DNA of 64,000 nt from Candidatus Sulfopaludibacter sp. SbA3 (GCA_945865815.1 CAMBFR010000002.1:30308-94307); one strand, 5' to 3'. Numbered from the stretch's first letter, positions 2,083 to 23,013 are shown. The notes: generated by a model not told the origin, from the letters alone. A program made the numbers and translations.

Positions 2083-3759
2083 ATGAAAATCTTCGCGATT
2101 TACCCCAACGCCGATGGCTATGGAAGGATTCCCACCGGATTGGCGATCGTCATGACCGTGCTTGAGAACGCGGGCCACCAACTCGATCTTTTCGACACGA
2201 CGTTTCTTCACGACGCCAACCATGACAACGACACCCGCGAACGGGCTGGCTTGGTCAAGACGGTGGAGTCGTATGTAGGCCCACAGCTGACCAGTTGTGA
2301 CGGGATGCCTGTCCTCGCCTACGAGTCCCTGAGCCAGGACGCCGTCGACAATCTGCTACGCGAGAAGCTGAAGCTGTCCAATCCCGACGTCGTAATCATG
2401 AGCATAGTCGAGGACAACTACAACTGGGCCGACAGACTTCTTCGCGTCGTCAAGAACTTCCGGCGATCGATCCCGGTGATCGTGGGTGGGCCCACGCCCT
2501 CCGCGGCGCCTGAACGGCTGATCGAGAATCCGCACATCGATTACCTGGTGCAGGGCGAGGGTGATGAAGCTGTAGTCGAACTCTGCGACGTATTGGAACG
2601 CGGCCGGAGCGTCGAGAACGTTAGGAATCTCTGGCACAAAACGAAAGACGGCGGCATCCATTCCACACCGCTTCGACCGTTTATCAACCTGGACTCGAGT
2701 CCCTATCAGAACGTGGAATTGTGGGATCGGCGGCATTTCTACAAGCCGTATGACGGGAAGATTTACTGGACAGGGTATTTCGAAATGTCGCGCGGGTGTC
2801 CGTACCTGTGCACTTATTGCGTCAATCACACTATTCAGAGCAGCCTGAAGACCGCTGGAAAATACTTCCGCCGCAAGACCCCGTCCGTGGCGGTGAAAGA
2901 GATCAAATACCACAAGGAGAAATACGGCCTCAAACGGATCGTGTTCTGCGACGACAACTTCCTCCTCATGCCCGGTCCGGCATTCGAGGCTTGGGGGGCT
3001 GAATTCAAGGAGGCCTGGCTCCGCGAGGTCAACTTGCCATATTGGATTACCACGTCCGCTGACTTCATCCATCCGCAGACGCTCCAGCTGTTGGCGGAGA
3101 CGGGATGTGACGGAATCGGGTTGGGCGTCGAAGCCGGGGGCGAATGGTTCAAGCGAAACATCCTCAAGCGGCGGCTGACGAACGAGCGCACGGTCGAGAT
3201 CTTCAAGTTGGCCCACGACTACGGGATCCGAACCACCGCGAACATCATGATGGGATTCCCCGGCGAGTACGAAGAAGACATCTTCGAGTCAATCAAGCTG
3301 ATTCGGAGAGTTCAACCGAAGAGCTTCGACGTGTCGCTGGTCGCACCCTACGTGGGGACGGATATTCACACCGCCTGCGTAACGCTGGGTTTGATCGACG
3401 TCTTTGACAAACCCGGCTTCCGAGGCATGAGTACGGAAATCTCGTTCCGTCAGTATTCGACTATTCGGAATCCCAATATCAGCCGGGAGCGTATCTCCGA
3501 CCTCTACGACACGTTCGTCGACTACGTCAGCGGAAAGCTGCCGATTCCCGAAAAGTATCTCGCGCCGGCCCCTGGAGCCGACGATACGGCTCCTCCACGA
3601 GGCGACATGAGCCGGGACGTGGCCGAGGCGATCAAAGGGATCAAGGCGGATACCCGCCCCGAGGCAAAGGAGTTGCCGGATGTGGGGGTTGTCGCCATCG
3701 GAGGTCTCAGGACCGCATCAAGAACTGAGACTATGGCGCCGGTCGGAAGCGACGTCTGA
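2083..3759 (+). CDS. B12-binding domain radical SAM protein (class B, cobalamin-dependent)
   Basis: N-terminal B12-binding Rossmann-like region (VVIMSIVEDNY...IPVIVGGPTPS...VQGEGDEAVVEL). Radical SAM CxxxCxxC motif MSRGCPYLCTYC. GGAGG-like SD (aaggag) about 8 nt upstream of the ATG. Confidence 0.85.
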   Translation: MKIFAIYPNADGYGRIPTGLAIVMTVLENAGHQLDLFDTTFLHDANHDNDTRERAGLVKTVESYVGPQLTSCDGMPVLAYESLSQDAVDNLLREKLKLSNPDVVIMSIVEDNYNWADRLLRVVKNFRRSIPVIVGGPTPSAAPERLIENPHIDYLVQGEGDEAVVELCDVLERGRSVENVRNLWHKTKDGGIHSTPLRPFINLDSSPYQNVELWDRRHFYKPYDGKIYWTGYFEMSRGCPYLCTYCVNHTIQSSLKTAGKYFRRKTPSVAVKEIKYHKEKYGLKRIVFCDDNFLLMPGPAFEAWGAEFKEAWLREVNLPYWITTSADFIHPQTLQLLAETGCDGIGLGVEAGGEWFKRNILKRRLTNERTVEIFKLAHDYGIRTTANIMMGFPGEYEEDIFESIKLIRRVQPKSFDVSLVAPYVGTDIHTACVTLGLIDVFDKPGFRGMSTEISFRQYSTIRNPNISRERISDLYDTFVDYVSGKLPIPEKYLAPAPGADDTAPPRGDMSRDVAEAIKGIKADTRPEAKELPDVGVVAIGGLRTASRTETMAPVGSDV

Positions 3760-3917
3760 CGGGCTCTCGCTTGTTTCTCACCGAAGTTTCCTTTTGAGCG
3801 CGCTCTGCTGCTCCCACGAGATCATCCCTTATTGTCACGACATTACCCGGAGCACCTGGATTCCAAGCACGCACGGCGCCAACCTTCTGACAGAACGAAC
3901 TCGATACGTTTCTTGAG

Positions 3918-3941
3918 TCCTGCAAAGGCAGGAATTCTTTG
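3918..3941 (+). terminator. weak hairpin (tcctgc-aaag-gcagga) followed by a T-rich run ATTCTTTG, downstream of the radical SAM gene at 2083..3759
   Basis: 6-bp stem, 4-nt loop and T-rich tail, read directly. Stem is short and GC content modest. Confidence 0.2.
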
Positions 3942-3970
3942 TCGGGCGAGCAAAAAAGTAGGTTACCTTT

Positions 3971-4711
3971 ATGGGCATGGGAACACCCATGGGACCATCG
4001 TTTGCATCAGATCCGAAGGGCGCACTCGAGTTCTTCAACGAATATGGCTATCAGATCGAGCCCGATGTCCACTCGGCCGCCGAGTGCAGGGAACTGATCG
4101 AGGCGTCCCACCGGCTCAGCGACTACGGCAACGGGAACTTGACGCCCGCGATGCAGGCGCACCGTTACGATCCCCGGTTCATGCTGGCCTTCTCAAATCC
4201 CAAAATCGTCTCGATCATGGAAATGCTCCTCTCCGGAAAGGTCAGCGGCCTGCAGACGGAGATTTTCTACTGCCCTCCGGGAACGCCCGGCTTCAGCCTG
4301 CACCAGGACAATTTTTACGCCGAAGTCGTGCGCGGGGGGTTCGCGACGGCGTGGTGCCCACTGCAAGACGTCACGTCCGAAAACGGAGGTCTGATTGTGT
4401 ACCCTCGCAGCCATCAACTGCCGCTGCTGCCGGTCGAACCGGTGCCTGACAGACCGGCGGCCACGCCCCACCAGGACCCTAACGCCGCGCAGATCCAATG
4501 CGTGCTGCCGACGGGCTTTGAGCCCGTAAACGCCGAGATTACGCTCGGCTGTGCGCTTTTCATCCACGGCTTTCTTGTACACGGATCGAATCAAAACCGC
4601 TCCACCGACCGCTACCGCCACGTCTTTCTGGGCACCTACGTGCGCCAGGGCGAGAAGTTCCGGGCGGGCAACTACGCCAAGCGCGAGGAAGTGAATGTCT
4701 ACCGAACCTAG
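3971..4711 (+). CDS. phytanoyl-CoA dioxygenase (PhyH) family Fe(II)/2-oxoglutarate-dependent oxygenase
   Basis: HQDNFY (HxD iron ligands) and distal FIHGFLVHGSNQN histidine, typical of the PhyH family; 246 aa. Confidence 0.65.
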   Translation: MGMGTPMGPSFASDPKGALEFFNEYGYQIEPDVHSAAECRELIEASHRLSDYGNGNLTPAMQAHRYDPRFMLAFSNPKIVSIMEMLLSGKVSGLQTEIFYCPPGTPGFSLHQDNFYAEVVRGGFATAWCPLQDVTSENGGLIVYPRSHQLPLLPVEPVPDRPAATPHQDPNAAQIQCVLPTGFEPVNAEITLGCALFIHGFLVHGSNQNRSTDRYRHVFLGTYVRQGEKFRAGNYAKREEVNVYRT

Positions 4712-5489
4712 GCTGGCGCTGGTAACGGGCGCGAGCGCAGGGATCGGACGCGAGATCACCCTGAGTTTGGCCCGTCAGGGAATGCGTGTGGTGGCCTGCG
4801 CTCGTGGAAAGCGGGCGCTGGCAGCGCTGGCACGCGAGGCGCAGGAGGAAAGCTTGCGCGTGGTGGTATTTAGCTGCGACGTTACCCGTGAAGCGGAGGT
4901 GCGAAAACTAGCCGTTTTCGTGCGACGGGAATGCGGTGGGGTCCTGGACGTGCTGGTGAACAATGCCGGCGGGCACAGGGCATTTGGAGAATTTGAAGAC
5001 CTCACGGTGGCTGACTGGGAGCAGGCGTACGCGCTGAACGTGTTGAGCGTGGTTCGGATGACGCGGGCCCTGCTGCCGCTGTTGCGCCGTTCGAAGCGGG
5101 CACCGGGCATCGTCAACCTGGCCTCCGCGGTTGCATTGTCCCCAGGTGCATTTCATCCGCACTACTCCGCAGCCAAGGCCGCGCTCCTGAATCTCTCAGT
5201 TTACCTGGCCAAGCGCTACGGACCCGAGGGTATCCGCGTGAATGCGGTCGCGCCGGGCACGATCACGGGGCCGGCCTGGGACCGCAACGTCGCCGCGTGC
5301 GCGAGAGACCGCCGCATGACTCATGCCGCGGCCGAACGGTTTTCGAGAGAGCGGCAACTAGCCAAGATCCCGCTGAGGCGGCTTGGCGAGGCTGCGGACG
5401 TGGCCGCGGCGGTGGCGTTCCTGGCTTCCGCGTCCGCCGCGTGGATCTCGGGTGTATGCATCCCGGTGGACGGAGGCGCCACACGATGA
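4695..5489 (+). CDS. SDR family NAD(P)-dependent oxidoreductase
   Basis: LALVTGASAGIGREI glycine-rich motif, NNAG, and YSAAKAA (YxxxK catalytic pair). Confidence 0.85.
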   Translation: MSTEPRLALVTGASAGIGREITLSLARQGMRVVACARGKRALAALAREAQEESLRVVVFSCDVTREAEVRKLAVFVRRECGGVLDVLVNNAGGHRAFGEFEDLTVADWEQAYALNVLSVVRMTRALLPLLRRSKRAPGIVNLASAVALSPGAFHPHYSAAKAALLNLSVYLAKRYGPEGIRVNAVAPGTITGPAWDRNVAACARDRRMTHAAAERFSRERQLAKIPLRRLGEAADVAAAVAFLASASAAWISGVCIPVDGGATR

Positions 5490-5500
5490 TCCAGCATCGT
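5483..5500. terminator. short hairpin (acgatg-atccag-catcgt) in the 60-bp gap between convergent genes
   Basis: 6-bp inverted repeat overlapping the SDR stop codon. Lies between the convergent 4695..5489 (+) and 5550..7535 (-) genes. Confidence 0.15.
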
Positions 5501-5549
5501 TACGAAGGCTGGCGTTTGCAGGACCGCGAGGCATCGTAGAGATCGAAGT

Positions 5550-7535
5550 CTAATGATGCCCTGCCAGCTTGAACGGCTCATCAATCGTCTCCGCCGCGCC
5601 GCGAATCGAGTAAAGATAGGACCCGCTCTTGCTGCCGAACCATATCACTTCACGGCACCAATCTTGCCAGTTCTCCCAGCGGGAACTCGTGCGGTCAATG
5701 GAATAGGTGCACGAGGTGCGGACGAGCGGGACCTCTTCGCCACAGACCGCGGCGCGGTAGAACTCCCAGATGTTGTAATCGCTCTTCACGGTAACATCGG
5801 CTTCGCAGAAGGGCTGACGGATCAACGCAGCATTCAGGGCGACGGCGGCGCGTAGCAACTCCTCGGGCATCTCGGTTCCAGTCTCGCGTAAGTAGACACA
5901 CAGCCGACGCTCAGCTTCGGCATGGAAGGCTGTGAGTTTTCCCTCTACCGAGAGCTTGATCATCATGTATTCGTCGGCGGGCCAGTACACGCCCAGCCAT
6001 TCAGGGGACGGGCACAGCTCGAAGTCACCTCGCTGGATGGCGCGCGCCTTTTCATGGAAGAACTGAGCGATCTCGGCGAGCACTGGGAATTCCGCCGTCT
6101 TCTCATTCAGGAATACCTCCGCAAGCTCACGGTAAGAGCGGCCGTACTCCTTGTTTAACAGAATAAACGGAATCTGAAGCAGCTTGTTGAAGTGCAGGAG
6201 ATTCAACATCCACGAGAACGCGCGAGCACGCACCCAGTCCTCGCGTGACAGCGACGAGTTGGCGATCACCAGCTTCTGCATTTCCGGCACGTCGCCTTCG
6301 GGCCGTTCAATGAGGCCGCGGATGTAGACCACCTCGTTCTCGATCGTCACGATCCCGAAGCGCTTCTGGTACTCGGGATCGCCCATCTCTGCGTTGGGCA
6401 GGATCGACAAGTTCATAAAGAAAATGCGGTTGTGCTGCCCGCCCTCAATCAGCGTGGCTACGCCGTCCATGTACGAGTCACACGTTTCGCCGGGCAAGCC
6501 GAGGATGATATCGCTGTAAGTCGGGATTCGATCCGCAGTGAAGCGGCGCTGAAGTTCCTGAAACGACTTCAGTGAAATATTGTCGCGCTTGATGTTTTTC
6601 AACGTCTCGGTGTCCGTGCTTTGGAACGACAGCGTGATCGCCTTGTTGAGGCCGCTGGTGGCTAAAAGCTTTTGGACCTGATAGGCGTTTTCGGTGGCGT
6701 TCTTGGTGTTCTGGACGGACATGGCATGCGGATAACCATACTTCTGCTTGGCCTCGACCACGCACTTCGCAATTTCGAAATCACGTTTAAGGATGCCGAA
6801 GTTGGCGTCGGCGCAGAATACAAACTCAATCTTGTTCCGAGCGAACCAGTCGACCTCGCGCTCAAGGCGGGGCATGCCGAACGGCGAAACCTTACTTTGG
6901 ATGGCCGAGCCCCAGTCGCAGTATGTGCACGAGAAGGGGCAGCCCCGGTTGGTCTCCCAGATCGCGAGCCACTTCTCGGCGGGGTTGGCCTCGATCAACG
7001 GCTCGAAGACGCCGTTCAGGTATGGCGAGGTCTCTTCGGCATAATCGGGGATGCGCGGGTTCTTTTCGTTTCGTTGGTAAATTCCGTCAGCTTTCAGGAA
7101 GCTCAGGGACTTGATCTCTCCCCAGGGGCGTTCGCCAAGACCTTCCAGAATATTCAGAAAAGGTGTCTCGCCCTCTCCGTGCACGACGAGGTCGATGAAA
7201 GTGTTCTGACGAAGGAACTCCTCAGCGTGATCCGGCACTTGGGGGCCGCCGAAGACAATCACAGTATTGGAATTCAGTTCCCTGAGGCGCTTGGCGATCG
7301 CAAGAGAAAGGTTCACGTTCCAGACGTATACGCTGAAAGCCGCAACGTCGGCCTTGGCGATGGCTTGGGCGCCTTTCTCGATCGGGAGGCGGGAGTGGAG
7401 CGGCAGCAAGAACTCGTAGTCCTCGGGCCGTCTGGCACGGGCCTTGACGAACGACTGCAACAGACCCACGGAATAGGGCAAGTACCCCTGTCCAGAGTAG
7501 TCGTTGTTGATTTGAATCAGAGCGACGCTAACCAC
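5550..7535 (-). CDS. B12-binding domain radical SAM protein with extended C-terminal domain (661 aa, GTG start)
   Basis: N-terminal B12-binding region (IVFGGPQVP...VVHGEGETPFLNIL). Radical SAM core ETNRGCPFSCTYCDWG. Paralogous in architecture to 12918..14945. Confidence 0.85.
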   Translation of the reverse strand: MVSVALIQINNDYSGQGYLPYSVGLLQSFVKARARRPEDYEFLLPLHSRLPIEKGAQAIAKADVAAFSVYVWNVNLSLAIAKRLRELNSNTVIVFGGPQVPDHAEEFLRQNTFIDLVVHGEGETPFLNILEGLGERPWGEIKSLSFLKADGIYQRNEKNPRIPDYAEETSPYLNGVFEPLIEANPAEKWLAIWETNRGCPFSCTYCDWGSAIQSKVSPFGMPRLEREVDWFARNKIEFVFCADANFGILKRDFEIAKCVVEAKQKYGYPHAMSVQNTKNATENAYQVQKLLATSGLNKAITLSFQSTDTETLKNIKRDNISLKSFQELQRRFTADRIPTYSDIILGLPGETCDSYMDGVATLIEGGQHNRIFFMNLSILPNAEMGDPEYQKRFGIVTIENEVVYIRGLIERPEGDVPEMQKLVIANSSLSREDWVRARAFSWMLNLLHFNKLLQIPFILLNKEYGRSYRELAEVFLNEKTAEFPVLAEIAQFFHEKARAIQRGDFELCPSPEWLGVYWPADEYMMIKLSVEGKLTAFHAEAERRLCVYLRETGTEMPEELLRAAVALNAALIRQPFCEADVTVKSDYNIWEFYRAAVCGEEVPLVRTSCTYSIDRTSSRWENWQDWCREVIWFGSKSGSYLYSIRGAAETIDEPFKLAGHH

Positions 7536-7604
7536 ACGGCACAGAATAGCACATCAAGTTATATCCATCGTTCAGAGGGCAAACGAAATAACTATCGGTA
7601 TCGG

Positions 7605-8471: not shown

Positions 8472-8687
8472 TCCTTACCAGGCGGTCCATCCGCCATCCA
8501 TTCTGAGAACGGTACTGCTGCTATGGCGACAAACATCTCCAACCAGAATTCCACGAGCGGTAATAATTCGCGAACATTCATGATTCGTCTGAGAGGCGTG
8601 TGGCGAGAATCAGATTCGGAAAAAGACGCATCCGGTGCGTTTGTAACTGCGCCAGGCTCAATGAATTTTACTCGAAGAGTGAATCGT

Positions 8688-12623: not shown

Positions 12624-12641
12624 TGACATCCATGGATGTCA
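12624..12641. promoter_or_regulatory. perfect 18-bp palindrome TGACATCCATGGATGTCA in the 450-bp divergent intergenic region; candidate dimeric transcription-factor operator
   Basis: Verified base by base: positions 12624..12641 are self-complementary. Located between divergently transcribed radical SAM genes (starts at 12466 and 12918). Confidence 0.35.
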
Positions 12642-12917
12642 GTTTCGATGAGAGTCCACCTCGGTTCCTCTCATTTGGTTTCGCTTGCCGGGTGGAAAAG
12701 GTTATGGGAAAGACTGGCCGGAGCGGCCTTGGAAGACTCTTCGAGTTTTCGGCTTTCCCAGAACCTCGACGACAGAGGATAATTCAACCGAATCCTCGCT
12801 CATTGTTTAGGCAACCGAAGTTTTATTTGTGAGCAATCAGGGGGAATTGACTGGATTGAAGAAAGTAGCAGCTTTGAAACCGATATCTCAAGACCGCACA
12901 CGCTCGGGAGGTTCCAC

Positions 12918-14945
12918 TTGAAAACGAGGGTCTACCTCGCTGACTTAACACACACTCGAAACGGCATAATGGCTTTGACCTTTCCTATCGGCACAGCGTT
13001 CGTAGCCGCTTATGCGAAACATGTATTAGGCGACGATTTTGAATTCCACCTCTTCAAATTTCCTGAACGTTTGAGTCAGGCAATCAGTGAAAAGCCTCCA
13101 CGCGTGCTGGCACTGTCCAATTATTCCTGGAACCTGGAACTCGGCTACAAAATAAGCGCCTGGGCCAAGCGGCAAGATCCCAAGCTCATCGTCATTTTCG
13201 GGGGTCCTAACTTTCCTGTTTCGACTGATGAAAAGGCGAAATTCCTTCGGCGAAGATCGGCCATAGATGTCTATGTGGAAAACGAGGGTGAAGTGGGATT
13301 TGCCGATTTGCTCACCAACCTGGAGAATTACAATTTCGACATCGCCGCCTTTAAACGCTCCCACCAGGCGGTTGGGAACTGCACGTATCTTGACGGCAAT
13401 CAAGTAATCCAAGGCGGAATAGATCGAATTCGAGACGTCAACGCCATCCCCTCCCCTTATCTGACCGGAATTTTGGATGAATTCTTTGAATTCCCTTTGA
13501 CTCCCATGATCGAAACGACCCGGGGCTGCCCCTTCAGTTGCTCGTTTTGCGCCGATGGCCTTCCTTCAAAGAGCAAAGTAACCGCCTTTCACCACGATAG
13601 AGTTCGGGAGGAACTGAATTACATTGCCGAGCGCATCAAGAATAGTAATGAGCTTCTGATTACCGACCTGAATTTCGGGATGTATAAACAAGATTTGGAA
13701 ACGGCTCAATTCATTGCGGATATTCAAAGCAAGTTCAACTGGCCTGTGCTCATCAAGGCATCCGCAGGAAAAAATCTACCCGAACGGATCATTGAAGCCG
13801 CATCCCTTCTCAAGGGGTCGTGGGTAATCGGATCCGCAATCCAGTCTTCAGACCAGGAAGTCCTGAAGAATATCAAGCGCGCCAACATATCCGTGGACGC
13901 ATATAGAGACTTCCTGAAACTGATGAACAACCTGGACAAGAAAGCCTCGACTTTCAGCGAGATAATACTGGCGTTACCCGGGGATTCGAAGAAAAAGCAC
14001 TTCGAGTCTCTGCGATACGCGATCGACAGCGGCGTGAACCTCGTGAAGTCGTATCAGGCGATGTTGCTCATGGGAACGGACATGGCATCCCAGGCAACCC
14101 GTGTTCAGTTTGGACTCATGACTAAATTCAGAATCATGGCTGGCGGTGTCGGGGTCTATCAGTTTGGCGAAGAAGAAATTCGGGTGGCAGAAATCCAGGA
14201 GATTATTGTCGGCAGTAAGGACATGTCTTTTGAAGATTACGTGTCCTGCCGCATCATGAGCCTTATCATTGAGACGTATTACAACAACGCCCCGTTCGGG
14301 GAGATTCTTGCCGCCATGAAGGTTATGGGGCTACCGGTGTTCGATTTCCTGGTCTATCTTAACGAGCACGAGGAGTTGTATACGCCAAGAATCAAAGAAA
14401 TAGTCAAGAGGTTCGTTGATGGCACGACCAGCAACTTATACGATTCTCACGAAGAAGCGGAGTCGCTGGGCCTGAGCCCGGACCTGTTTGACCGGTATCT
14501 CTCTGGTGATCTGGGCTTCAACGAAGCGCTGGAATGTAAAGCACTCCTCTATTTTGAGATGGAGCAGACTCTGGCTGTGCTGCTGACCGCTTTAAAAATG
14601 TATCTCGCAGAGAAGGATTTGCTGACTGAAACCATCCAGGACTATTTTGATCAGCTCGGTGATTTTATTCTGTGCAAGAAGAAAGAGATCAACGAGACAG
14701 AGTTGGTTATAGAAAGACTCTTCAATTATGATTTCGGGGCAATCGATGCTCTGAATTATCAAGTCGATCCCCGAAGTATCCAACGAGCAAGCGAGGGCAT
14801 TCGCTTCACGTTCTTCCACGACCAAGAGCAAAAAAATTACATTAACCAGTCCCTCAGCCTCTATAAGAACCATCCCGGTGGAATCAGCAGGGCGCTTTAC
14901 GTGCAGAATCTGAAAAAGATGTACAGGACTTTTCAGCGCCTGTGA
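12918..14945 (+). CDS. B12-binding domain radical SAM protein with extended C-terminal domain (675 aa, TTG start)
   Basis: B12-binding region (LIVIFGGPNFP...YVENEGEVGFADLL). Radical SAM core ETTRGCPFSCSFCADG. GGGAGG SD 6 nt upstream of the TTG at 12918. Confidence 0.85.
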   Translation: MKTRVYLADLTHTRNGIMALTFPIGTAFVAAYAKHVLGDDFEFHLFKFPERLSQAISEKPPRVLALSNYSWNLELGYKISAWAKRQDPKLIVIFGGPNFPVSTDEKAKFLRRRSAIDVYVENEGEVGFADLLTNLENYNFDIAAFKRSHQAVGNCTYLDGNQVIQGGIDRIRDVNAIPSPYLTGILDEFFEFPLTPMIETTRGCPFSCSFCADGLPSKSKVTAFHHDRVREELNYIAERIKNSNELLITDLNFGMYKQDLETAQFIADIQSKFNWPVLIKASAGKNLPERIIEAASLLKGSWVIGSAIQSSDQEVLKNIKRANISVDAYRDFLKLMNNLDKKASTFSEIILALPGDSKKKHFESLRYAIDSGVNLVKSYQAMLLMGTDMASQATRVQFGLMTKFRIMAGGVGVYQFGEEEIRVAEIQEIIVGSKDMSFEDYVSCRIMSLIIETYYNNAPFGEILAAMKVMGLPVFDFLVYLNEHEELYTPRIKEIVKRFVDGTTSNLYDSHEEAESLGLSPDLFDRYLSGDLGFNEALECKALLYFEMEQTLAVLLTALKMYLAEKDLLTETIQDYFDQLGDFILCKKKEINETELVIERLFNYDFGAIDALNYQVDPRSIQRASEGIRFTFFHDQEQKNYINQSLSLYKNHPGGISRALYVQNLKKMYRTFQRL

Positions 14946-15325
14946 ATACTGTCGGGGATATTCTCTACCCTCTCAGCTTGATTTCGGTGGCTCAAACCTT
15001 CCCGAAGCGCAATCTCCTGAACAGTCTTCATCAGTTTCTGTTCAATGCGTTCGAGTTTCACGTACATGCGATACATGACAAAGAACACAAATACGATAGC
15101 CATTCCGAAAAACGTTCCCAAGCCGGCTCTACCTCCCCCAAACGCATTAATCAGGATGTCAATCAGCGCCGGAAACACAGCAACGACAACGATGGCTATC
15201 CAGGTGGCGGTCCAAAATACGAACATTTGCAGGGATTCAAGACGAGAACGGAAGTCCACATAGCTCTTGGAAATTGCGATCACGGCGAGCAGCACGGAGA
15301 ATATCTGCGAAATGAAGACAAACAT
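14933..15325 (-). CDS. DUF2304-like small membrane protein (GT2-associated)
   Basis: 130 aa with three predicted TM helices followed by a charged coiled tail (MYRMYVKLERIEQKLMKTVQEIALREG). Start abuts the stop of the upstream GT2 (15325 vs 15327). This architecture typically accompanies polyprenyl-phosphate GT2 genes. Confidence 0.5.
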   Translation of the reverse strand: MFVFISQIFSVLLAVIAISKSYVDFRSRLESLQMFVFWTATWIAIVVVAVFPALIDILINAFGGGRAGLGTFFGMAIVFVFFVMYRMYVKLERIEQKLMKTVQEIALREGLSHRNQAERVENIPDSIHRR

Positions 15326-15326
15326 T

Positions 15327-16058
15327 TCAGGTTCGCCGCATCAATCGCATCAATAAGCCGAGAATCAGATTGACTCCGTTCAGGAAATGCTGGCCCTTGG
15401 CGCGCGAGTAATCCGTGTAGACAGGTTTGACGGGAACTGATTTGTAGCAGAGATTCTTTCTGTAGATTTCTCCGACAATCTCAGAACATATCTCGTAGCC
15501 CGCCGATTCAAGTTCCAGTCTTTCAACGGCGCTGCTCGTGAAGACCTTGAAGCCGGATTGGGAATCGGAAACGATCTTGCCGTAAACTAGGTAAGTCAAC
15601 GCGTTGAGAAGCAAGTTGGCGGCTATCCTCGTTAATGGCATACCGGCCGGCTCGAGAATCCGGCTGCCGATGACTACGTCGAAATGCCCTTCATTCAGGC
15701 ACCGAACCAGTGGCTCGATCTCTGCGGGATTGTGCTGGCCATCCGAATCCATAGTTACGATGACATCCGCTTCAAGCGCACGCGCAGCCTTCAACCCTGT
15801 AATGGTAGCTGCTCCCGCGCCGAGATTAACAATGTGCCGGATAACCACAGCGCCATGACGCCGGGCTATTTCGCCGGTCGCGTCTGCGGAGCCATCGTCG
15901 ACAACGATGCTGAAAACGGACATCCCCTCGATGTTGGCAGGAATTAATGCCAGAACCTGTCCAATGACGGCAGCCTCGTTGCAGGCCGGCATCACAACCG
16001 CAAGAAGGCCGGAACTGATGGGCAGGTCCGCTTTTTCCGTGGACTCAAGGTTAATCAC
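15327..16058 (-). CDS. GT2 family glycosyltransferase (polyprenyl-phosphate sugar synthase, DPM1/GtrB-like, soluble form)
   Basis: LAVVMPACNEAAVIGQVL, IVVDDGSADATGEIA and MDSDGQH (DxD region) typical of GT-A dolichyl/undecaprenyl-phosphate glycosyltransferases; 243 aa. Confidence 0.8.
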   Translation of the reverse strand: MINLESTEKADLPISSGLLAVVMPACNEAAVIGQVLALIPANIEGMSVFSIVVDDGSADATGEIARRHGAVVIRHIVNLGAGAATITGLKAARALEADVIVTMDSDGQHNPAEIEPLVRCLNEGHFDVVIGSRILEPAGMPLTRIAANLLLNALTYLVYGKIVSDSQSGFKVFTSSAVERLELESAGYEICSEIVGEIYRKNLCYKSVPVKPVYTDYSRAKGQHFLNGVNLILGLLMRLMRRT

Positions 16059-16168: not shown

Positions 16169-17647
16169 TTAGGGCGATATGCTCTCAGACTCACTCGCCG
16201 TCCTTCCCAACCTCAGGTAAGCGTAGAAGCCAACCAGGGCTACGAACAGAATCAGCGAAAGCATATACGCTGCTTTCACCGTGTCCTGGTACGACTCATC
16301 ATTTGCCATTGTAAGCAACTGGGGACACAGGGCAAACAGTGGCAGGTTATTCGAATTCCCGGTCCAGTACGTACCGGTAGTTGGAAGCGCCCAGAGCCAT
16401 GAGTTCCGAACGAGCATGGCGAAAAGACCCAGCAATAGAACCCATTTGACAGCCACACGAAGGCTTGCGTTTCCGATTCCTTCGAAGACCTGATCAAATC
16501 CAGAGGCAGCGAGCAATACGAGATATAGGATAAGGAATATCATCATGCGGGCCGGATATTGATCCAATGCCGAAATAGGGATCACATACTGGAGAAGTAG
16601 CCAGGCCACCTGGAGGACGGACGCGAGGAGACAAACAAGGATAACCAGCATTGCACAGACAAATGGTTTTGCCCTTAACGGATTAGGCGTTTGTGTTCCA
16701 CTCCACGCTGGATAAGCAATGGCTACGGCAATGAGGGCGAGCCCGAGCCAGCCAAGATATGCTGTGCGCTCCCACTCAATACCATCTGCGATAACCGGGT
16801 ACGGAACCAATAATGATTGAAACAACTGGGGGATAATTGTGAATGGATAAGTAAAGCTACCGAAGCCGCTGGATATCAGACGTCCGCTTTCGGCATACCC
16901 GCTGTAGAAGAGAACCGGGATGAACAGGTACGCAGCCACTGAGAACGCGATTCCGAATCCAAGTCCCACCCATGGAAGCTGGCGACGGTGAAACAGAAAA
17001 ATGCAGGTAGTGCCCAGTAGAATGGGTTGAAGAACGTGAAGGGCACCGAACGAAATAATCAGGACCAATAATCCAGCCCACTCCAGTGTCAGCATCAGCT
17101 TCTGGCGGCGGTTAGCGTGCTCCGACTCCGCAAAGTTTGCCCAAAGCCAAAACACCCAGGGGATAAGGAAATAGCCTCCCAGATCTCCGATATGTCCAAC
17201 ACCAGCCTTGGCGCTGTAAAAGCCGTTAAACACAAAGAGGACTACTGCGAAAGTCGCGGCAGCGACAGAAAGATTCAGCCTGTGAATCCACCTCATAATG
17301 CCCAGGAAACCGATCGAATAAAGCAACACGACGTGCAGGACAATCCACTGAGAAACGCGGAGCCATCCAAGAGCAACGAGGTCTGGTGAAGTGAGTATCC
17401 ACGGTGCAGCCAGAAGACGAAAATTGTTCAGATAACTGCCCCGGACGCTTTCGTCACAAAAGAACGATGCGTGATAAGGAATCTGACCTGTACGAATGGC
17501 TGTCTGGGTGACCGTCAATATTGACTCGTACAGCATCCAGTCAAAAGTGTGCGCATTGCCCCAGTCCAAAAACAGCATCCAGTAGACTGCTCCAAGAATG
17601 TAAATACTCAGAAGCCAGATCCATTTGGAGTCAAGCTGGCGCAGCAC
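16169..17647 (-). CDS. polytopic integral membrane protein, putative GT-C-type glycosyltransferase
   Basis: 492 aa with more than 10 hydrophobic helices and aromatic-rich loops. No soluble-domain motifs. Placed between two polyprenyl-P GT2 genes. Confidence 0.45.
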   Translation of the reverse strand: MLRQLDSKWIWLLSIYILGAVYWMLFLDWGNAHTFDWMLYESILTVTQTAIRTGQIPYHASFFCDESVRGSYLNNFRLLAAPWILTSPDLVALGWLRVSQWIVLHVVLLYSIGFLGIMRWIHRLNLSVAAATFAVVLFVFNGFYSAKAGVGHIGDLGGYFLIPWVFWLWANFAESEHANRRQKLMLTLEWAGLLVLIISFGALHVLQPILLGTTCIFLFHRRQLPWVGLGFGIAFSVAAYLFIPVLFYSGYAESGRLISSGFGSFTYPFTIIPQLFQSLLVPYPVIADGIEWERTAYLGWLGLALIAVAIAYPAWSGTQTPNPLRAKPFVCAMLVILVCLLASVLQVAWLLLQYVIPISALDQYPARMMIFLILYLVLLAASGFDQVFEGIGNASLRVAVKWVLLLGLFAMLVRNSWLWALPTTGTYWTGNSNNLPLFALCPQLLTMANDESYQDTVKAAYMLSLILFVALVGFYAYLRLGRTASESESISP

Positions 17648-17697
17648 GTTGGCGGTTTCAGCGGGACGGATCAGATAGACCTCAAGGGCGCGTCATG

Positions 17698-19254
17698 TCA
17701 CAGCGCCGCGGCGTCATGATGCTCGTGATGAGTCCTTCGGCCACTTTCGCCTTTCTTGCGACGAACAATGGCGAACAGGCGCTCTTCGAAAACAGTATCT
17801 GATCTGTGCAGGGAATAGTTCCGAACGGAACGCAGAACATGGCTGGGATGGAGCAGGTAGCTTAGGCCATACGAGAGAGACATACCCAACAGACGATAGA
17901 AAGAGATTTCCAGTGGGCCGACATTTTCGCAGTAGTTTGTATGCTGCTTCAGATCCATGAACGTCATCAGGGACCGAAAATATGCACGATTCATATCTGC
18001 GATGGCGCCGGTCTTACGAAGATACTCGTACAGTTCCGAGCCAGGGTAAGGAGAATAATTATAGATAGCCGTGTCGTCGACGCCGCTCCACGCAAATTTC
18101 ACGGCGCACCACACGGTCTGGAGCATGTCGCGGCGAGTTTCATGCGGAAAACCGATAATCAGGTTGCACTTGACAAATATTCCATTCGATTTCGCATGCT
18201 TGATGGATTCGAAAAGACGAGGAAGCGCAACCTTCTTCTTGATCAGCTTCAACGTTCGAACTGAGCCGCTTTCCGGAGCGTACGTAACGTTCATACATCC
18301 GGACGTAGCCATTTCCCGTAACACTTCTGAATCCATTGCTTCGGAACGGGTGCCGCTTGGCAACTGCCACGTAACCTTGAGATCGCGACTCTTCATCTCT
18401 TTGCAGAATGCGAGAATCCAGTCTCTCTTGATAATCGCCGTCAGGTCAAAAAAGTCGATGTTGTCGGCCTTATACGTTCTTACATAGTGCTCAATCTCGT
18501 CGACTACCATCCGGACGTTACGCATCAGGTATCGAGTAGTCCACATCAAAGGACTGGAGCAGAACGTACACTGGTAGGGACAGCCCCGGGTGGCCAGGAT
18601 TGGCATACTGCGACCGCGCTCTACTCCGTGCCCCTGCCCGGCCTTGAAGTAAGGCTCGAGATTGAACAAGTGCCAGGCTGGCCGTGGAATTTCATCAACG
18701 GCCCTGATTCGGGTGCGCTCTGGATTCACAACCATGTTTCCGCTTGCATCGAGATACCGAATTCCGTTGACGTCAGAGAGTGAGATCTTGCCATCAAGCC
18801 AGTCTGCCCAGTCGACGATGGTTTCATCGCCTTCTCCGACCGCTACAAAATTCACAGCAGGAAAACTTCGGAGCACATACTCACCAGCCGCAGTTGCGTG
18901 CTCCCCTCCCAGGATTATGGGAACATCGGGAAACCGATCGCGGATGGCGCTGATCATGTCTTCGATATGCGGCCAATCCTGGGAAAACATCGCCGAAATG
19001 CCAATGCCATCTGGCCTCTCGGTGATTCGCTCGACAATGCGGGGGATCGAAAGACCGCGGTACCTGACACGGGAGTCGTAGGAGACTCCTATGTTTTCAA
19101 TGTCTTCGCCAAGCGCATCCAGGTTTGAAACCTGATGCCCACTCTCGATCAGATTGGCGCTCAAGTAAGCGAGAGCTAAAGGCATGGTGACAGGAGCGCT
19201 ATAGCTGGAACTGGAAAACACCGCAGGGGGCCTGATAAGTAAGATACGACTCAT
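17698..19254 (-). CDS. B12-binding domain radical SAM protein
   Basis: B12-binding region (PIILGGEHATAAGEYVL...VAVGEGDETIVDWA). Radical SAM core ILATRGCPYQCTFCSSP. 518 aa. Confidence 0.85.
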   Translation of the reverse strand: MSRILLIRPPAVFSSSSYSAPVTMPLALAYLSANLIESGHQVSNLDALGEDIENIGVSYDSRVRYRGLSIPRIVERITERPDGIGISAMFSQDWPHIEDMISAIRDRFPDVPIILGGEHATAAGEYVLRSFPAVNFVAVGEGDETIVDWADWLDGKISLSDVNGIRYLDASGNMVVNPERTRIRAVDEIPRPAWHLFNLEPYFKAGQGHGVERGRSMPILATRGCPYQCTFCSSPLMWTTRYLMRNVRMVVDEIEHYVRTYKADNIDFFDLTAIIKRDWILAFCKEMKSRDLKVTWQLPSGTRSEAMDSEVLREMATSGCMNVTYAPESGSVRTLKLIKKKVALPRLFESIKHAKSNGIFVKCNLIIGFPHETRRDMLQTVWCAVKFAWSGVDDTAIYNYSPYPGSELYEYLRKTGAIADMNRAYFRSLMTFMDLKQHTNYCENVGPLEISFYRLLGMSLSYGLSYLLHPSHVLRSVRNYSLHRSDTVFEERLFAIVRRKKGESGRRTHHEHHDAAAL

Positions 19255-23011: not shown

Positions 23012-23013
23012 TG

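What the first reader, a model, noticed from the sequence alone, without database searches (positions are those of the whole stretch)
2083..19254. Four cobalamin-dependent radical SAM enzymes plus a SPASM-type radical SAM embedded in a nucleotide-sugar / nonulosonic-acid glycan locus
Five radical SAM genes lie within 17 kb:
- 2083..3759 (MSRGCPYLCTYC)
- 5550..7535 (ETNRGCPFSCTYC)
- 11366..12466 (CNMTCVMC plus a C-terminal Cys cluster)
- 12918..14945 (ETTRGCPFSCSFC)
- 17698..19254 (ATRGCPYQCTFC)

Four of them carry an N-terminal B12-binding Rossmann domain. All are interleaved with sugar aminotransferases, NeuB-like synthases, cytidylyltransferases and polyprenyl-phosphate glycosyltransferases. 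No precursor peptide, bacteriochlorophyll, hopanoid or antibiotic-scaffold genes are present.

Known class B radical SAM enzymes (for example GenK, Fom3, TsrM) catalyse methylation or rearrangement at unactivated carbons. Four such enzymes in one surface-glycan locus would imply a sugar, or a nonulosonic acid, carrying several radical-installed C-methyl or C-alkyl groups or a rearranged skeleton. To my knowledge such a glycan modification system has not been described.
Basis: partly seen in the sequence, partly recalled or inferred. Interest (0 to 1): 0.88.

Follow-up and report, generated by a model that had tools for sequence, protein, structure and literature searches.

The report
B12 radical enzymes tailoring surface sugars
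An uncultured bacterium's giant cell-surface sugar locus carries five radical SAM enzymes, four of them vitamin-B12-dependent, and their families turn up next to sugar-building genes in many other bacteria, which points to an unstudied radical chemistry for decorating surface sugars.

Summary
Five radical SAM genes sit at the stated coordinates. Four carry a B12-binding domain above Pfam's cut-off. The fifth has a SPASM-type domain with only four conserved cysteines, so it is twitch-like, as in BtrN.

The link to sugar genes is not incidental, but the five genes do not form one pathway. They fall into at least three modules that recur separately elsewhere:
- **rSAM2** (about 40% identical to the methylase TokK). 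Relatives were found in 555 genomes. In the 73 neighbourhoods analysed, an aldo-keto reductase lies directly downstream in 37 of 72, and nucleotide-sugar genes are present in 62 of 73. NeuB is almost never present.
- **rSAM1 and rSAM3**, with a short NeuB-like synthase, a phosphatase/CMP-transferase fusion and an aminotransferase. NeuB is adjacent in 10 of 14 rSAM1 loci.
- **rSAM5**, between a polyprenyl-phosphate glycosyltransferase and a 10-helix membrane protein, in a CDP-dideoxyhexose (RfbF/RfbH) module.

rSAM4 is a CysS/TokK-like paralogue with little evidence from other loci. A close relative (87% DNA identity) lacks the 16 kb that carries rSAM1-4, so the island is a mosaic.

No paper searched links these enzymes to surface glycans. 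Substrates and products remain inferred.

The parts
829..1797 (-). Aldo-keto reductase, the conserved partner of the rSAM2 family.
   Evidence: Pfam Aldo_ket_red, 185 bits. Orthologues at 49-53% identity lie directly downstream of the rSAM2 orthologue in 37 of 72 loci.
2083..3759 (+). rSAM1: class B (B12-binding) radical SAM enzyme of unassigned chemistry, linked to NeuB and CMP-transferase genes.
   Evidence: Pfam. All NCBIfam matches are far below cut-off, the best being HpnJ at 116 bits against 578. Orthologues at 49-75% identity have a NeuB-like gene adjacent in 10 of 14 loci with usable flanks.
3971..4711 (+). PhyH-family Fe(II)/2-oxoglutarate dioxygenase.
   Evidence: Pfam PhyH, 70.7 bits. 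Orthologues at 40-55% identity occur in 6 rSAM2 loci by tblastn. The ORF cluster that contains them is present in 8 of 73 loci.
4695..5489 (+). Classical short-chain dehydrogenase. It overlaps the PhyH gene, so the two are probably translationally coupled.
   Evidence: Pfam adh_short_C2, 180 bits.
5550..7535 (-). rSAM2: TokK/CysS-like class B radical SAM enzyme and putative sugar C-methylase.
   Evidence: PDB sequence search: TokK E 4e-92 over residues 17-473, CysS E 4e-57. The KedN5 subfamily score is 265 bits, below the cut-off of 700. 555 genome loci encode relatives.
7605..8471 (-). Short NeuB-family ulosonic-acid synthase without a SAF domain.
   Evidence: Pfam NeuB, 207 bits. The NeuB_NnaB model scores 218 bits, below the 400 cut-off. 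Orthologues at 39-61% identity sit beside rSAM1 orthologues.
8688..9914 (-). DegT/LegC/PseC-like PLP aminotransferase.
   Evidence: Pfam 269 bits. LegC family model 207 bits, below cut-off. Orthologues at 68-72% identity occur in L096 and L104 beside rSAM1.
9911..11200 (-). Fusion of a KdsC-like HAD phosphatase and a CMP-ulosonate cytidylyltransferase.
   Evidence: Pfam CTP_transf_3 plus HAD. NCBIfam KdsC, YrbI and KDN-9-P phosphatase models match residues 19-165; KdsB-like models match residues 177-337. All are below cut-off.
11366..12466 (-). rSAM3: radical SAM enzyme with a twitch/SPASM-like auxiliary-cluster domain.
   Evidence: Pfam. The C-terminus (residues 274-351) matches BtrN at E 3e-11. 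Invariant Cys residues are listed. Homologues lie in glycan or flagellin-glycosylation loci.
12918..14945 (+). rSAM4: CysS/TokK-like class B radical SAM enzyme, a paralogue of rSAM2.
   Evidence: 28.5% identity to rSAM2. CysS E 1e-40, TokK E 1e-36. A 35%-identical full-length homologue in an Azospirillum oryzae plasmid cluster is directly followed by an rSAM3-like gene.
14933..15325 (-). DUF2304 small membrane protein, partner of the preceding GT2 gene.
   Evidence: Pfam DUF2304, 58 bits. The same gene order is seen in L094.
15327..16058 (-). GT2 enzyme similar to polyprenyl-phosphate sugar synthases (PpgS/AglJ).
   Evidence: Pfam. NCBIfam PpgS 146 bits, below cut-off.
16169..17647 (-). Polytopic membrane protein of unknown family with about 10 TM helices, a conserved partner of rSAM5.
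   Evidence: No Pfam or NCBIfam match. Hydropathy scan. 82% identity in L094 and 25% identity (E 1e-15) in L089, in both cases directly after the rSAM5 homologue.
17698..19254 (-). rSAM5: class B radical SAM enzyme of unassigned chemistry.
   Evidence: Pfam. The best NCBIfam matches are the Sden_1168 P-methyltransferase at 163 bits and BchE at 152 bits, both far below cut-off. Family members share 50-92% identity.
19303..20268 (-). GT2 enzyme with two C-terminal TM helices, similar to PgfS/ArnC polyprenyl-phosphate glycosyltransferases.
   Evidence: 59% identity in L086 and 94% in L094, directly upstream of rSAM5 in both.
20265..21647 (-). RfbH-type CDP-4-keto-6-deoxyglucose 3-dehydrase.
   Evidence: NCBIfam NF011936, 626 bits, above the cut-off of 423.
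21644..25109 (-). UDP-glucose/GDP-mannose dehydrogenase-family enzyme and two extended SDR dehydratase/epimerase-like genes.
   Evidence: Pfam. NCBIfam matches are all below cut-off.
25094..25861 (-). Glucose-1-phosphate cytidylyltransferase (RfbF).
   Evidence: TIGR02623, 367 bits, above the cut-off of 300.

Best explanation
The window is a mosaic cell-surface glycan island of an uncultured bacterium. The five radical SAM genes are sugar-tailoring enzymes that belong to at least three modules. Each module recurs on its own in other bacteria, so they probably act on different sugars rather than on one.

**Module 1: rSAM2, the aldo-keto reductase at 829-1797 and an SDR gene just outside the window.** rSAM2 is a TokK/CysS-type methylcobalamin enzyme.
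- Inferred mechanism: the 5'-deoxyadenosyl radical abstracts a hydrogen from an unactivated sp3 carbon of a sugar that is nucleotide- or phosphate-linked. The carbon radical then takes a methyl group from methylcobalamin, possibly more than once. The reductases set or reset a neighbouring keto group.
- rSAM4 is a diverged paralogue expected to use the same chemistry.

**Module 2: rSAM3, the phosphatase/CMP-transferase fusion, the aminotransferase and the short NeuB, with rSAM1 on the opposite strand.** This module makes a CMP-activated ulosonic acid by a KDN-like route through a phosphorylated intermediate.
- rSAM3 is BtrN-like. It is proposed to oxidise a hydroxyl to a ketone that the aminotransferase converts to an amine.
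- rSAM1 adds a B12-dependent radical modification, either C-methylation or a rearrangement.

**Module 3: RfbF, SDRs, RfbH, a GT2, rSAM5, a 10-TM protein, a second GT2 and DUF2304.** This module makes a CDP-3,6-dideoxyhexose-type sugar and loads it onto polyprenyl phosphate. rSAM5 modifies either the nucleotide sugar or the lipid-linked sugar, together with the membrane protein.

**Shown:** the domain content, the sequence similarities and the conserved neighbourhoods.
**Inferred:** every substrate, every site of attack and every product.
For: Domains are confirmed.

**rSAM2**
- It aligns with TokK over 457 residues (E 4e-92) and with CysS.
- 555 genome loci across at least 10 phyla encode relatives.
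- In 73 analysed neighbourhoods, the AKR gene is directly downstream in 37 of 72, and at least one nucleotide-sugar family is present in 62 of 73. Those families are SDR, GHMP kinase, NTP-transferase, GDP-mannose-dehydratase-like, DegT, RmlC and E1/transketolase-like.

**rSAM1**
- 10 of 14 loci with usable flanks have NeuB-like genes, and most also have CMP-transferase genes.
- L096 carries DegT_a (68% identity), rSAM3-like (40%), NeuB_short (61%), CMP-transferase (45%) and rSAM1 (70%) in a single same-strand run.

**rSAM3**
- Homologues at 57-64% identity lie beside NeuB, NeuC and GDP-sugar genes in Nitrospina (L091).
- Another lies beside NeuB-short, HAD and CMP-transferase genes (L093).
- Another lies in a Roseospira locus with a TPR-GT41 protein and flagellin (L090).
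- The auxiliary-cluster domain matches BtrN and has four invariant Cys.

**rSAM5**
- The order NTP-transferase, SDR, RfbH-like, SDR, GT2, rSAM5 is shared with an Elusimicrobia MAG (L086). There a PMT_2 GT-C protein follows rSAM5, whereas in the window the 10-TM protein of unknown family follows it.
- In L089, the pair of an rSAM5-like gene and a homologous membrane protein sits inside a legionaminic-type cluster that is syntenic with window 38339-57951.

**Mosaic structure**
- L094 aligns at 87% nucleotide identity to window 25880-14973. It then jumps to sequence 1.4 kb beyond the window start.

**rSAM4**
- CysS and TokK are its best solved relatives.
- A 35%-identical homologue in Azospirillum oryzae is followed by an rSAM3-like gene in a cluster with carbamoyltransferases, methyltransferases and an epimerase.
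Against: - No substrate or product is known for any of the five families. None reaches the cut-off of a named NCBIfam family.
- rSAM1 and rSAM5 are roughly equidistant from methylases (PhpK, Sden_1168) and from non-methylating B12 enzymes (HpnJ, BchE). Methylation is therefore a guess for them.
- One rSAM5 orthologue at 72% identity (L087) has no sugar genes within 8 kb.
- rSAM5 contexts were sampled at only five loci.
- rSAM3 is not always next to an aminotransferase. In L091 and L093 an SDR follows it instead, so the oxidise-then-transaminate pairing may not hold generally.
- rSAM4 has no orthologue above 31% identity in the 131 loci fetched from assemblies and metagenomes. Its one annotated relative (35% identity, Azospirillum oryzae plasmid) lies in a cluster that is only loosely glycan-like.
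- In this window rSAM2 lies in the same strand run as the NeuB-like gene, so a local role in the ulosonic-acid pathway cannot be excluded.
- The final acceptor (LPS, capsule, S-layer or flagellin) is not identified. No Wzx, Wzy, Maf or flagellin gene was recognised in the window.
Confidence: 0.6

Rival explanations
1. One reading: the radical SAM enzymes act in sequence on a single sugar or nonulosonic acid, producing one glycan residue with several radical-installed C-alkyl groups or a rearranged skeleton.
For: The five genes lie within 17 kb. rSAM3, the CMP-transferase fusion, the aminotransferase, NeuB_short and rSAM2 form one same-strand run with short gaps. rSAM1 orthologues do co-occur with NeuB.
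Against: - rSAM2's family is found with NeuB in only 2 of 84 loci. Its conserved partners are an AKR, an SDR and nucleotide-sugar genes.
- rSAM5 belongs to a CDP-dideoxyhexose / polyprenyl-phosphate module. That module is retained in a relative that lacks rSAM1-4 altogether.
- The modules occur separately in other genomes.
Confidence: 0.1
2. Part of the region is a secondary-metabolite cluster rather than a surface-glycan locus, for example one that makes an aminoglycoside- or aminocyclitol-like compound. The radical SAM enzymes would then play GenK-, GenD1- and BtrN-like roles on a soluble pseudo-oligosaccharide.
For: - rSAM3's auxiliary domain matches BtrN.
- DegT-family enzymes and TokK/CysS-like methylases are typical of such clusters.
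- A sugar-phosphate cyclase related to AroB (TIGR04425, 454 bits against a cut-off of 400) lies at 59555-60637.
- The review read lists GenK, GenD1 and Fms7 among the known class B methylases. All three are aminoglycoside enzymes (my own knowledge).
Against: - The cyclase is 47 kb from rSAM3.
- The region is full of surface-glycan hallmarks. These include CMP-ulosonate cytidylyltransferases, NeuB/NeuC, WbuX plus HisH/HisF-like genes, and polyprenyl-phosphate GT2 enzymes with TM anchors. A DUF2304 protein, PMT_2-TPR GT-C proteins just outside the window, and RfbF/RfbH are also present.
- rSAM3 relatives sit next to flagellin and NeuB genes.
- No resistance or export genes typical of antibiotic clusters were seen.
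Confidence: 0.08
3. rSAM1 and/or rSAM5 are not methylases. They would instead catalyse another B12-dependent radical reaction on a sugar, such as ring contraction or rearrangement (as HpnJ and OxsB do), oxidative cyclisation (as BchE does) or dehydration. This rival concerns the chemistry only and is compatible with the modular glycan picture.
For: - rSAM1's best NCBIfam match is HpnJ (116 bits), followed by PhpK, the ladderane enzyme and BchE, all near 102 bits.
- rSAM5 matches BchE at 152 bits, almost as well as a P-methyltransferase at 163 bits.
- The best solved relatives are AprD4, an unnamed chain (9ccb) and OxsB, at E 1e-7 to 1e-15.
Against: All of these matches are far below the family cut-offs. 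Most characterised class B enzymes are methylases according to the list in the 2026 review. No direct evidence favours either chemistry.
Confidence: 0.3
4. The adjacency of the radical SAM genes to sugar genes is incidental, and the enzymes serve unrelated pathways.
For: One rSAM5 orthologue at 72% identity (L087) has no sugar genes nearby.
Against: Recurrent, specific co-location is seen for rSAM1, rSAM2, rSAM3 and most sampled rSAM5 loci, across many phyla.
Confidence: 0.03

Closest known systems
TokK (asparenomycin) and CysS (cystobactamid), iterative cobalamin-dependent radical SAM C-methylases with solved structures (7kdx, 9n1b)
   Same: rSAM2 aligns with TokK over residues 17-473 (E 4e-92). 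rSAM4 aligns with CysS (E 1e-40). They share the B12 domain, the radical SAM core and the overall length of about 660-680 aa.
   Different: The C-terminal 190 or so residues do not align. The related NCBIfam KedN5 subfamily cut-off is not reached (265 and 163 bits against 700). TokK and CysS act on a carbapenam and on an aromatic methoxy group within antibiotic clusters. Here the conserved neighbours are nucleotide-sugar enzymes and an AKR.
GenK, GenD1 and Fms7 (aminoglycoside sugar C-methylases) and MoeK5 (moenomycin), class B radical SAM Csp3-methyltransferases
   Same: They are class B radical SAM enzymes listed as Csp3-methyltransferases (review PMC12931638). Their substrates are sugar or pseudo-sugar carbons, and for MoeK5 a lipid-linked sugar (my own knowledge). 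This is the nearest functional precedent for radical C-methylation of carbohydrates.
   Different: All belong to antibiotic biosynthesis in actinomycetes. No sequences were available here for direct comparison. The present families sit in surface-glycan and ulosonic-acid loci of diverse, mostly uncultured phyla.
BtrN with BtrS (butirosin): a twitch-domain radical SAM dehydrogenase followed by a DegT-family aminotransferase
   Same: rSAM3's C-terminal auxiliary-cluster domain matches BtrN (E 3e-11) and has four invariant cysteines, like a twitch domain. A DegT-family aminotransferase lies two genes downstream in the same operon. The oxidise-then-transaminate logic of BtrN and BtrS is from my own knowledge.
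   Different: Only 78 residues align. rSAM3 is about 100 residues longer than BtrN and has two further invariant Cys (C143, C154). In other loci an SDR follows rSAM3 rather than an aminotransferase.
KDN pathway of Bacteroides thetaiotaomicron (KDN-9-P synthase, KDN-9-P phosphatase) and Kdo8N formation in Shewanella (KdnB/KdnA)
   Same: A NeuB-family synthase, a KdsC/KDN-9-P-phosphatase-like HAD domain and a CMP-transferase are present. This implies a phosphorylated ulosonic-acid intermediate. Amination of an ulosonic acid by an oxidase plus an aminotransferase has a precedent in Kdo8N (my own knowledge).
   Different: All matches are below the equivalog cut-offs. The synthase lacks the SAF domain. 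Two radical SAM enzymes are conserved parts of the set, and neither known pathway has any.
Arn (L-Ara4N) and PgfS/PpgS-type polyprenyl-phosphate sugar pathways, and the RfbF/RfbH 3,6-dideoxyhexose pathway
   Same: RfbF and RfbH score above their cut-offs. The GT2 enzymes resemble ArnC, PgfS and PpgS and carry TM anchors. A polytopic membrane protein, or a PMT_2 GT-C enzyme in L086, follows.
   Different: A class B radical SAM enzyme occupies the position between the lipid-phosphate GT2 and the membrane protein. No known pathway of this type contains one. The membrane protein has no recognisable family.

Membership tests
Class B (cobalamin-dependent) radical SAM enzymes | CxxxCxxC radical SAM cluster motif within a Radical_SAM (PF04055) domain | tested here: met
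   The motifs are visible in the translations. PF04055 scores are 91.4, 40.3, 33.7 and 63.7 bits for rSAM1, 2, 4 and 5, against a cut-off of 29.5.
Class B (cobalamin-dependent) radical SAM enzymes | N-terminal B12-binding Rossmann domain (PF02310) | tested here: met
   Scores are 60.7, 41.6, 36.8 and 58.8 bits, against a cut-off of 32.1.
Class B (cobalamin-dependent) radical SAM enzymes | Actual binding and use of cobalamin | not testable with these tools
   This needs purified protein with UV-vis or EPR spectroscopy, or a structure.
TokK/CysS/KedN5-type C-methylases | Full-length similarity reaching the curated family threshold (NCBIfam NF033712, KedN5 subfamily) | tested here: not met
   rSAM2 scores 265 bits and rSAM4 163 bits against a cut-off of 700. 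They are relatives (TokK E 4e-92, CysS E 1e-40) but not members of the curated subfamily.
TokK/CysS/KedN5-type C-methylases | Methyl transfer from methylcobalamin to an sp3 carbon | not testable with these tools
   Requires an enzyme assay.
SPASM-domain radical SAM enzymes | SPASM domain (PF13186) with the 7-Cys motif that binds two auxiliary clusters | tested here: inconclusive
   The Pfam SPASM score of 66.4 bits exceeds the 21.5 cut-off. However, only four C-terminal Cys are invariant in 18 family members (C279, C297, C342, C346), plus C143 and C154 in the core. This pattern fits a one-cluster twitch-like domain.
BtrN-type radical SAM sugar dehydrogenases | Overall similarity to BtrN beyond the auxiliary domain | tested here: not met
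   Only residues 274-351 align with BtrN (E 3e-11). The similarity supports the claim 'may work like BtrN', not membership.
NeuB/PseI/LegI nonulosonic-acid synthases | NeuB catalytic domain plus a C-terminal SAF domain, with a score above the equivalog cut-off | tested here: not met
   The gene at 7605-8471 has the NeuB domain (207 bits) but no SAF domain. It scores 218 bits against 399.65 for NeuB_NnaB and 154 against 340 for PseI. For comparison, the second NeuB at 48147-49196 passes with 464 bits.
RfbH (CDP-4-keto-6-deoxyglucose 3-dehydrase) | Score above the NCBIfam NF011936 cut-off | tested here: met
   626 bits against a cut-off of 423, over the full length.
Hopanoid or tetrapyrrole class B enzymes (HpnJ, HpnR, BchE) | Score above the equivalog cut-off and a hopanoid or bacteriochlorophyll gene context | tested here: not met
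   All scores are 152 bits or less, against cut-offs of 481-650. No such genes appear in the window or in the related loci examined.

The most novel reading that the evidence does not exclude
Cobalamin-dependent radical SAM enzymes may be a widespread but unrecognised class of tailoring enzymes for bacterial surface glycans.
- The cassette of rSAM2, AKR and SDR, with relatives in more than 500 genomes across at least 10 phyla, would build C-methylated or chain-extended sugars by radical methylation, possibly iterative.
- The set of rSAM1, rSAM3, NeuB-like synthase and CMP-transferase would produce a new class of C-alkylated or skeleton-rearranged amino-ulosonic acids. Such sugars are not known from any characterised LPS, capsule or flagellin.
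Probability: 0.35. Interest if true: 0.8.

Novelty: new variant of a known kind. Interest (0 to 1): 0.62.

Why it matters
Class B radical SAM enzymes are one of the largest pools of enzymes with unknown function. The carbohydrate substrates known for them are antibiotic sugars such as those of GenK, GenD1, Fms7 and MoeK5.

If the families found here act on nucleotide sugars, ulosonic acids or lipid-linked sugars, surface glycans of many environmental phyla would contain C-alkylated or rearranged monosaccharides. Elusimicrobiota, Omnitrophota, Nitrospirota, Planctomycetota, cyanobacteria and Alphaproteobacteria are among them. Standard glycan analysis and locus annotation would miss such sugars.

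The work also makes the question testable in culture. Orthologues exist in Reyranella soli, Enhydrobacter aerosaccus and Kovacikia minuta (rSAM2), and in Roseospira visakhapatnamensis (rSAM3). A more distant homologue (35% identity) exists in Azospirillum oryzae (rSAM4-like).

It would also tie surface-glycan diversity to cobalamin availability and to low-oxygen lifestyles.

Tried and rejected
1. **Phosphonate hypothesis.** It was raised by two weak matches: rSAM5 to the Sden_1168 P-methyltransferase, and the PhyH protein to a methylphosphonate hydroxylase at 27 bits. I rejected it because no PEP mutase was found in any of the 58 ORFs scanned and all the scores are far below cut-off.
2. **Flagellin-glycosylation island.** No flagellin, Maf or TPR-GT41 gene was recognised in the window. 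One rSAM3 relative does sit next to such genes. The question stays open.
3. **Identity of the 10-TM protein at 16169-17647.** It has no Pfam or NCBIfam match even at E 5. It shows no similarity to the PMT_2 protein that holds the same position in L086. The single-sequence AlphaFold model had a mean pLDDT of 46, too poor for a fold search.
4. **Literature.** Five searches combined radical SAM, cobalamin or B12 with nonulosonic or legionaminic acid, flagellin glycosylation, O-antigen, nucleotide sugar or polysaccharide biosynthesis. None found a relevant paper. A sixth, broader search returned only unrelated polysaccharide papers, none containing 'cobalamin-dependent radical SAM'. The 2026 review of B12 radical SAM enzymes has no occurrence of sugar, glycan or polysaccharide.
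5. **Source organism.** The exact proteins exist in NCBI, ENA and Logan records, but no name or accession is attached. No genome in the GTDB-representative collection is closer than 58% identity for rSAM2.
6. **rSAM4 orthologue contexts.** No hit above 31% identity was found in the 131 fetched loci.

Full report
**1. Checking the observation**

ORF listing and Pfam scans confirm five radical SAM genes at exactly the stated coordinates.
- rSAM1 (2083-3759, +), rSAM2 (5550-7535, -), rSAM4 (12918-14945, +) and rSAM5 (17698-19254, -) each have a B12-binding domain. The scores are 60.7, 41.6, 36.8 and 58.8 bits against a cut-off of 32.1.
- Each also has a Radical_SAM domain above its cut-off.
- rSAM3 (11366-12466, -) has Radical_SAM plus SPASM (66.4 bits).
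- The CxxxCxxC motifs are in the translations.
- The four class B proteins are not recent duplicates. rSAM2 and rSAM4 share 28.5% identity, and all other pairs share about 23%.
- Five such genes among about 16 is far above expectation. The probability is roughly 1e-5 if 2% of genes are radical SAM (the 2% is an assumption).

Three details needed correction:
- The gene at 20265-21647 is an RfbH-type 3-dehydrase (626 bits against 423), not an aminotransferase.
- In an alignment of 18 family members, rSAM3 has only four invariant C-terminal cysteines. Its auxiliary domain therefore resembles the one-cluster twitch domain of BtrN, which is its only solved relative (E 3e-11 over residues 274-351).
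- The ORF at 14942-15373 (+) is probably spurious, because the opposite-strand ORF is a DUF2304 protein.

**2. The surroundings**

The whole 64 kb window is a glycan island, almost entirely on the minus strand. Its contents are listed below.
- Two NeuB-family synthases. Only the one at 48147-49196 has a SAF domain and passes the NeuB equivalog cut-off.
- NeuC.
- WbuX plus HisH/HisF-like amidotransferase genes.
- A PtmE-like CBS-nucleotidyltransferase.
- Five CMP-type cytidylyltransferases.
- An HpcH aldolase, FSA and SIS set with a KdsB-like transferase.
- RfbF and RfbH.
- Three GT2 enzymes.
- Several methyltransferases, SDRs and GFO oxidoreductases.
- An AroB-related sugar-phosphate cyclase.

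No peptide precursor, PEP mutase, hopanoid or tetrapyrrole gene was seen.

The sequence comes from a metagenome assembly (Logan ERR3719140).

**3. rSAM2**

rSAM2's closest solved relatives are the iterative class B C-methylases TokK (E 4e-92, residues 17-473) and CysS (E 4e-57). The related NCBIfam KedN5 subfamily is matched at 265 bits, well under its cut-off of 700.

The family is very large and well conserved.
- The 120 best database hits are 53-64% identical over the full length. All carry only generic names.
- A scan of one genome per species confirmed 555 loci encoding relatives.
- The hosts include Alpha- and Betaproteobacteria, cyanobacteria, Elusimicrobiota, Omnitrophota, Nitrospirota, Planctomycetota, Verrucomicrobiota, Acidobacteriota and others.
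- Cultured strains are among them: Reyranella soli, Enhydrobacter aerosaccus and Kovacikia minuta.

I called ORFs in 82 loci, clustered them and annotated the commonest clusters.
- An aldo-keto reductase lies directly downstream of the rSAM2 orthologue in 37 of 72 loci. The window's AKR at 829-1797 is 49-53% identical to these.
- An extended SDR is present in 47 of 73 loci.
- A GHMP sugar kinase is present in 35, and an E1/transketolase-like TPP pair in 34 and 28.
- GDP-mannose-dehydratase-like, DegT, NTP-transferase and RmlC genes are present in 13-25 each.
- At least one of these sugar families is present in 62 of 73 loci.
- NeuB is nearby in only 2 of 84 loci.

rSAM2 therefore belongs to a widespread nucleotide-sugar tailoring cassette, not to nonulosonic-acid synthesis.

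In the window the usual order of rSAM2, AKR and SDR is interrupted. The plus-strand genes rSAM1, PhyH and SDR lie between rSAM2 and the AKR. The partner SDR lies just beyond the window start.

**4. rSAM1 and rSAM3**

A metagenome scan with rSAM1 found 18 orthologous loci at 49-75% identity. I ran tblastn with all window proteins against them.
- NeuB-like genes lie adjacent in 10 of the 14 loci that have at least 2 kb of flank. Most of these also carry a CMP-transferase.
- L096 carries, in one same-strand run, DegT_a (68% identity), an rSAM3-like gene (40%), NeuB_short (61%), the CMP-transferase (45%) and rSAM1 (70%).
- L104 has an SDR, rSAM1, NeuB, HAD/CMP-transferase and DegT_a (72%).

The rSAM3 family has 707 hits, and the 120 best listed are 52-76% identical. 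Its members appear in glycan contexts:
- beside NeuB, NeuC and GDP-sugar genes in Nitrospina;
- beside CMP-transferase, a KdsC-like HAD and a short NeuB in L093;
- in Roseospira visakhapatnamensis, next to sugar-nucleotide genes, a TPR-GT41 protein and flagellin.

The conserved unit is therefore rSAM1, with or without rSAM3, plus a short NeuB-like synthase, a phosphatase/CMP-transferase and an aminotransferase.

The KdsC/KDN-9-P-phosphatase-like domain implies a phosphorylated ulosonic-acid intermediate.

By analogy with BtrN and BtrS (my own knowledge), rSAM3 may oxidise a hydroxyl to the ketone that the aminotransferase needs. This is an inference, and it is weakened by loci in which an SDR follows rSAM3 instead of an aminotransferase.

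rSAM1's chemistry cannot be assigned. Its best family matches (HpnJ, PhpK, ladderane enzyme, BchE) all score about 100-116 bits against cut-offs of 360-600.

**5. rSAM5**

The family is strongly conserved at 50-92% identity. The sampled contexts are as follows.
- **Elusimicrobia MAG (L086).** The order NTP-transferase, SDR, RfbH-like, SDR, GT2, rSAM5 matches the window. A PMT_2 GT-C protein follows rSAM5 there, where the window has a 10-TM protein of unknown family.
- **L094.** This close relative has an rSAM5 at 92% identity and the same arrangement at 88-94% protein identity.
- **Omnitrophota MAG (L089).** A 56% homologue is followed by a membrane protein related to the window's 10-TM protein (25% identity, E 1e-15). 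The pair is inserted in a legionaminic-type cluster that is otherwise syntenic with window 38339-57951.
- **L088.** This locus is riddled with IS elements but retains sugar genes.
- **L087.** This locus has none, and is a genuine counter-example.

NCBIfam identifies RfbF and RfbH above their cut-offs. The two GT2 enzymes resemble the polyprenyl-phosphate transferases PgfS/ArnC and PpgS. The first GT2 has two C-terminal TM helices.

rSAM5 plus its membrane partner therefore looks like a portable two-gene tailoring unit. It would act on a nucleotide-activated or lipid-linked sugar.

**6. rSAM4**

rSAM4 is a CysS/TokK-like paralogue (E 1e-40 and 1e-36). Its family is broad, with 1183 representatives at E up to 1e-30. 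No orthologue was present in the fetched loci.

The only annotated context obtained is a plasmid of Azospirillum oryzae. There a 35%-identical full-length homologue is directly followed by an rSAM3-like gene. The cluster also holds two more radical SAM genes, carbamoyltransferases, methyltransferases, a GNAT enzyme and an epimerase. This is suggestive but thin.

**7. Mosaic structure**

L094 aligns at 87% nucleotide identity with window 25880-14973. It then continues at 80.5% identity with sequence that lies about 1.4 kb beyond the window start (L001 10008-12893).

The roughly 16.4 kb that carries rSAM4, rSAM3, the ulosonic-acid genes, rSAM2, rSAM1 and the AKR is therefore absent from that relative. 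At its other junction the relative has a different B12 radical SAM gene (503 aa) next to YfhO and DUF6044 genes.

GC content inside the segment swings from 48% to 62.5%.

Together with the separate occurrence of each module elsewhere, this argues against a single pathway in which all five enzymes act on one sugar.

**8. Comparison with what is known**

The enzymes belong to known superfamily classes. Radical C-methylation of sugars has precedents in antibiotic pathways. GenK, GenD1, Fms7 and MoeK5 are listed in the 2026 review, and their substrates are known to me from the literature.

What appears to be new is the setting:
- conserved class B families inside surface-glycan, ulosonic-acid and polyprenyl-phosphate sugar modules;
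- a wide spread across phyla;
- no curated family name;
- no mention in the literature searched or in the review (0 occurrences of sugar, glycan or polysaccharide).

The library covers only open-access papers and bioRxiv, so this is absence of evidence, not proof of novelty.

**9. Verdict**

The enzymes are glycan-linked, but they are modular rather than one pathway. Methylation is well grounded only for rSAM2 and rSAM4.
- I rate the novelty as a new variant of a known kind, and the interest as moderately high.
- The hypothesis is specific and widespread, and it can be tested in cultured strains. All substrates and products remain inferred.

Noticed in passing
window 59555-60637 (-), with 55913-59562: An AroB-related sugar-phosphate cyclase (TIGR04425, 454 bits against a cut-off of 400) sits among GFO/IDH/MocA oxidoreductases and a SIS-domain gene. 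This hints at a carbocyclic (cyclitol-like) component or an unusual sugar-phosphate rearrangement in the same island.
   Followed up: no
window 1-14972 plus about 1.4 kb upstream (L001 8588-10007), compared with L094: A relative with 87% nucleotide identity lacks this roughly 16.4 kb segment entirely. The segment is therefore a strain-variable cassette carrying four of the five radical SAM genes. No repeats or mobile-element genes at the junctions were looked for.
   Followed up: partly
L094 1-3400: At the other junction the same relative carries a different B12-binding radical SAM gene (503 aa) next to YfhO and DUF6044 membrane-protein genes. The window has GT2 and RmlD genes in that position. 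This is another class B enzyme in the variable part of the island.
   Followed up: no
window 27975-31807 (-): A KdsB-like CMP-transferase, a putative sugar O-methyltransferase, an HpcH/HpaI pyruvate aldolase, a fructose-6-phosphate-aldolase/transaldolase-family gene and a SIS isomerase lie together. This may be an aldolase-based route to a further 2-keto-3-deoxy acid sugar, independent of NeuB.
   Followed up: no
L089 8001-11068 compared with window 44341-46969: An Omnitrophota legionaminic-type cluster is syntenic with window 38339-57951. Where the window has an epimerase, an ATP-grasp gene and a PHP gene, L089 instead has an rSAM5-like gene and a homologue of the 10-TM protein. The two sets look like alternative tailoring cassettes occupying the same slot.
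   Followed up: partly
L087 8001-9557: An rSAM5 orthologue at 72% identity in an Acidiferrales-type contig has no sugar genes within 8 kb. Its neighbours are an ABC transporter, histidine kinases and an enolase-superfamily gene. This is unexplained.
   Followed up: no
L132 (Azospirillum oryzae plasmid NZ_CP054615.1, 218967-244967): A cultured strain carries a cluster with four radical SAM genes, including an rSAM4-like gene next to an rSAM3-like gene. The cluster also has two carbamoyltransferases, a GNAT enzyme, methyltransferases and an SGNH hydrolase. It could be an experimentally tractable analogue.
   Followed up: partly
L003/L004 1099-3755; L016, L024, L026, L047, L061, L011, L037: Eight of the rSAM2 loci contain one or two additional B12 radical SAM genes, and L003 has one directly followed by a PhyH dioxygenase. 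Sugar clusters with several class B enzymes are therefore recurrent and not unique to this window.
   Followed up: partly
window 54847-55956 (-): A 369-aa protein has only weak sulfotransferase and P-loop matches (E about 0.006). It is a possible glycan sulfotransferase.
   Followed up: no
window 4001-6000 compared with 12001-14000: GC content ranges from 62.5% to 48% within the cassette, against an island average near 55%. This is consistent with modules of different origin.
   Followed up: no
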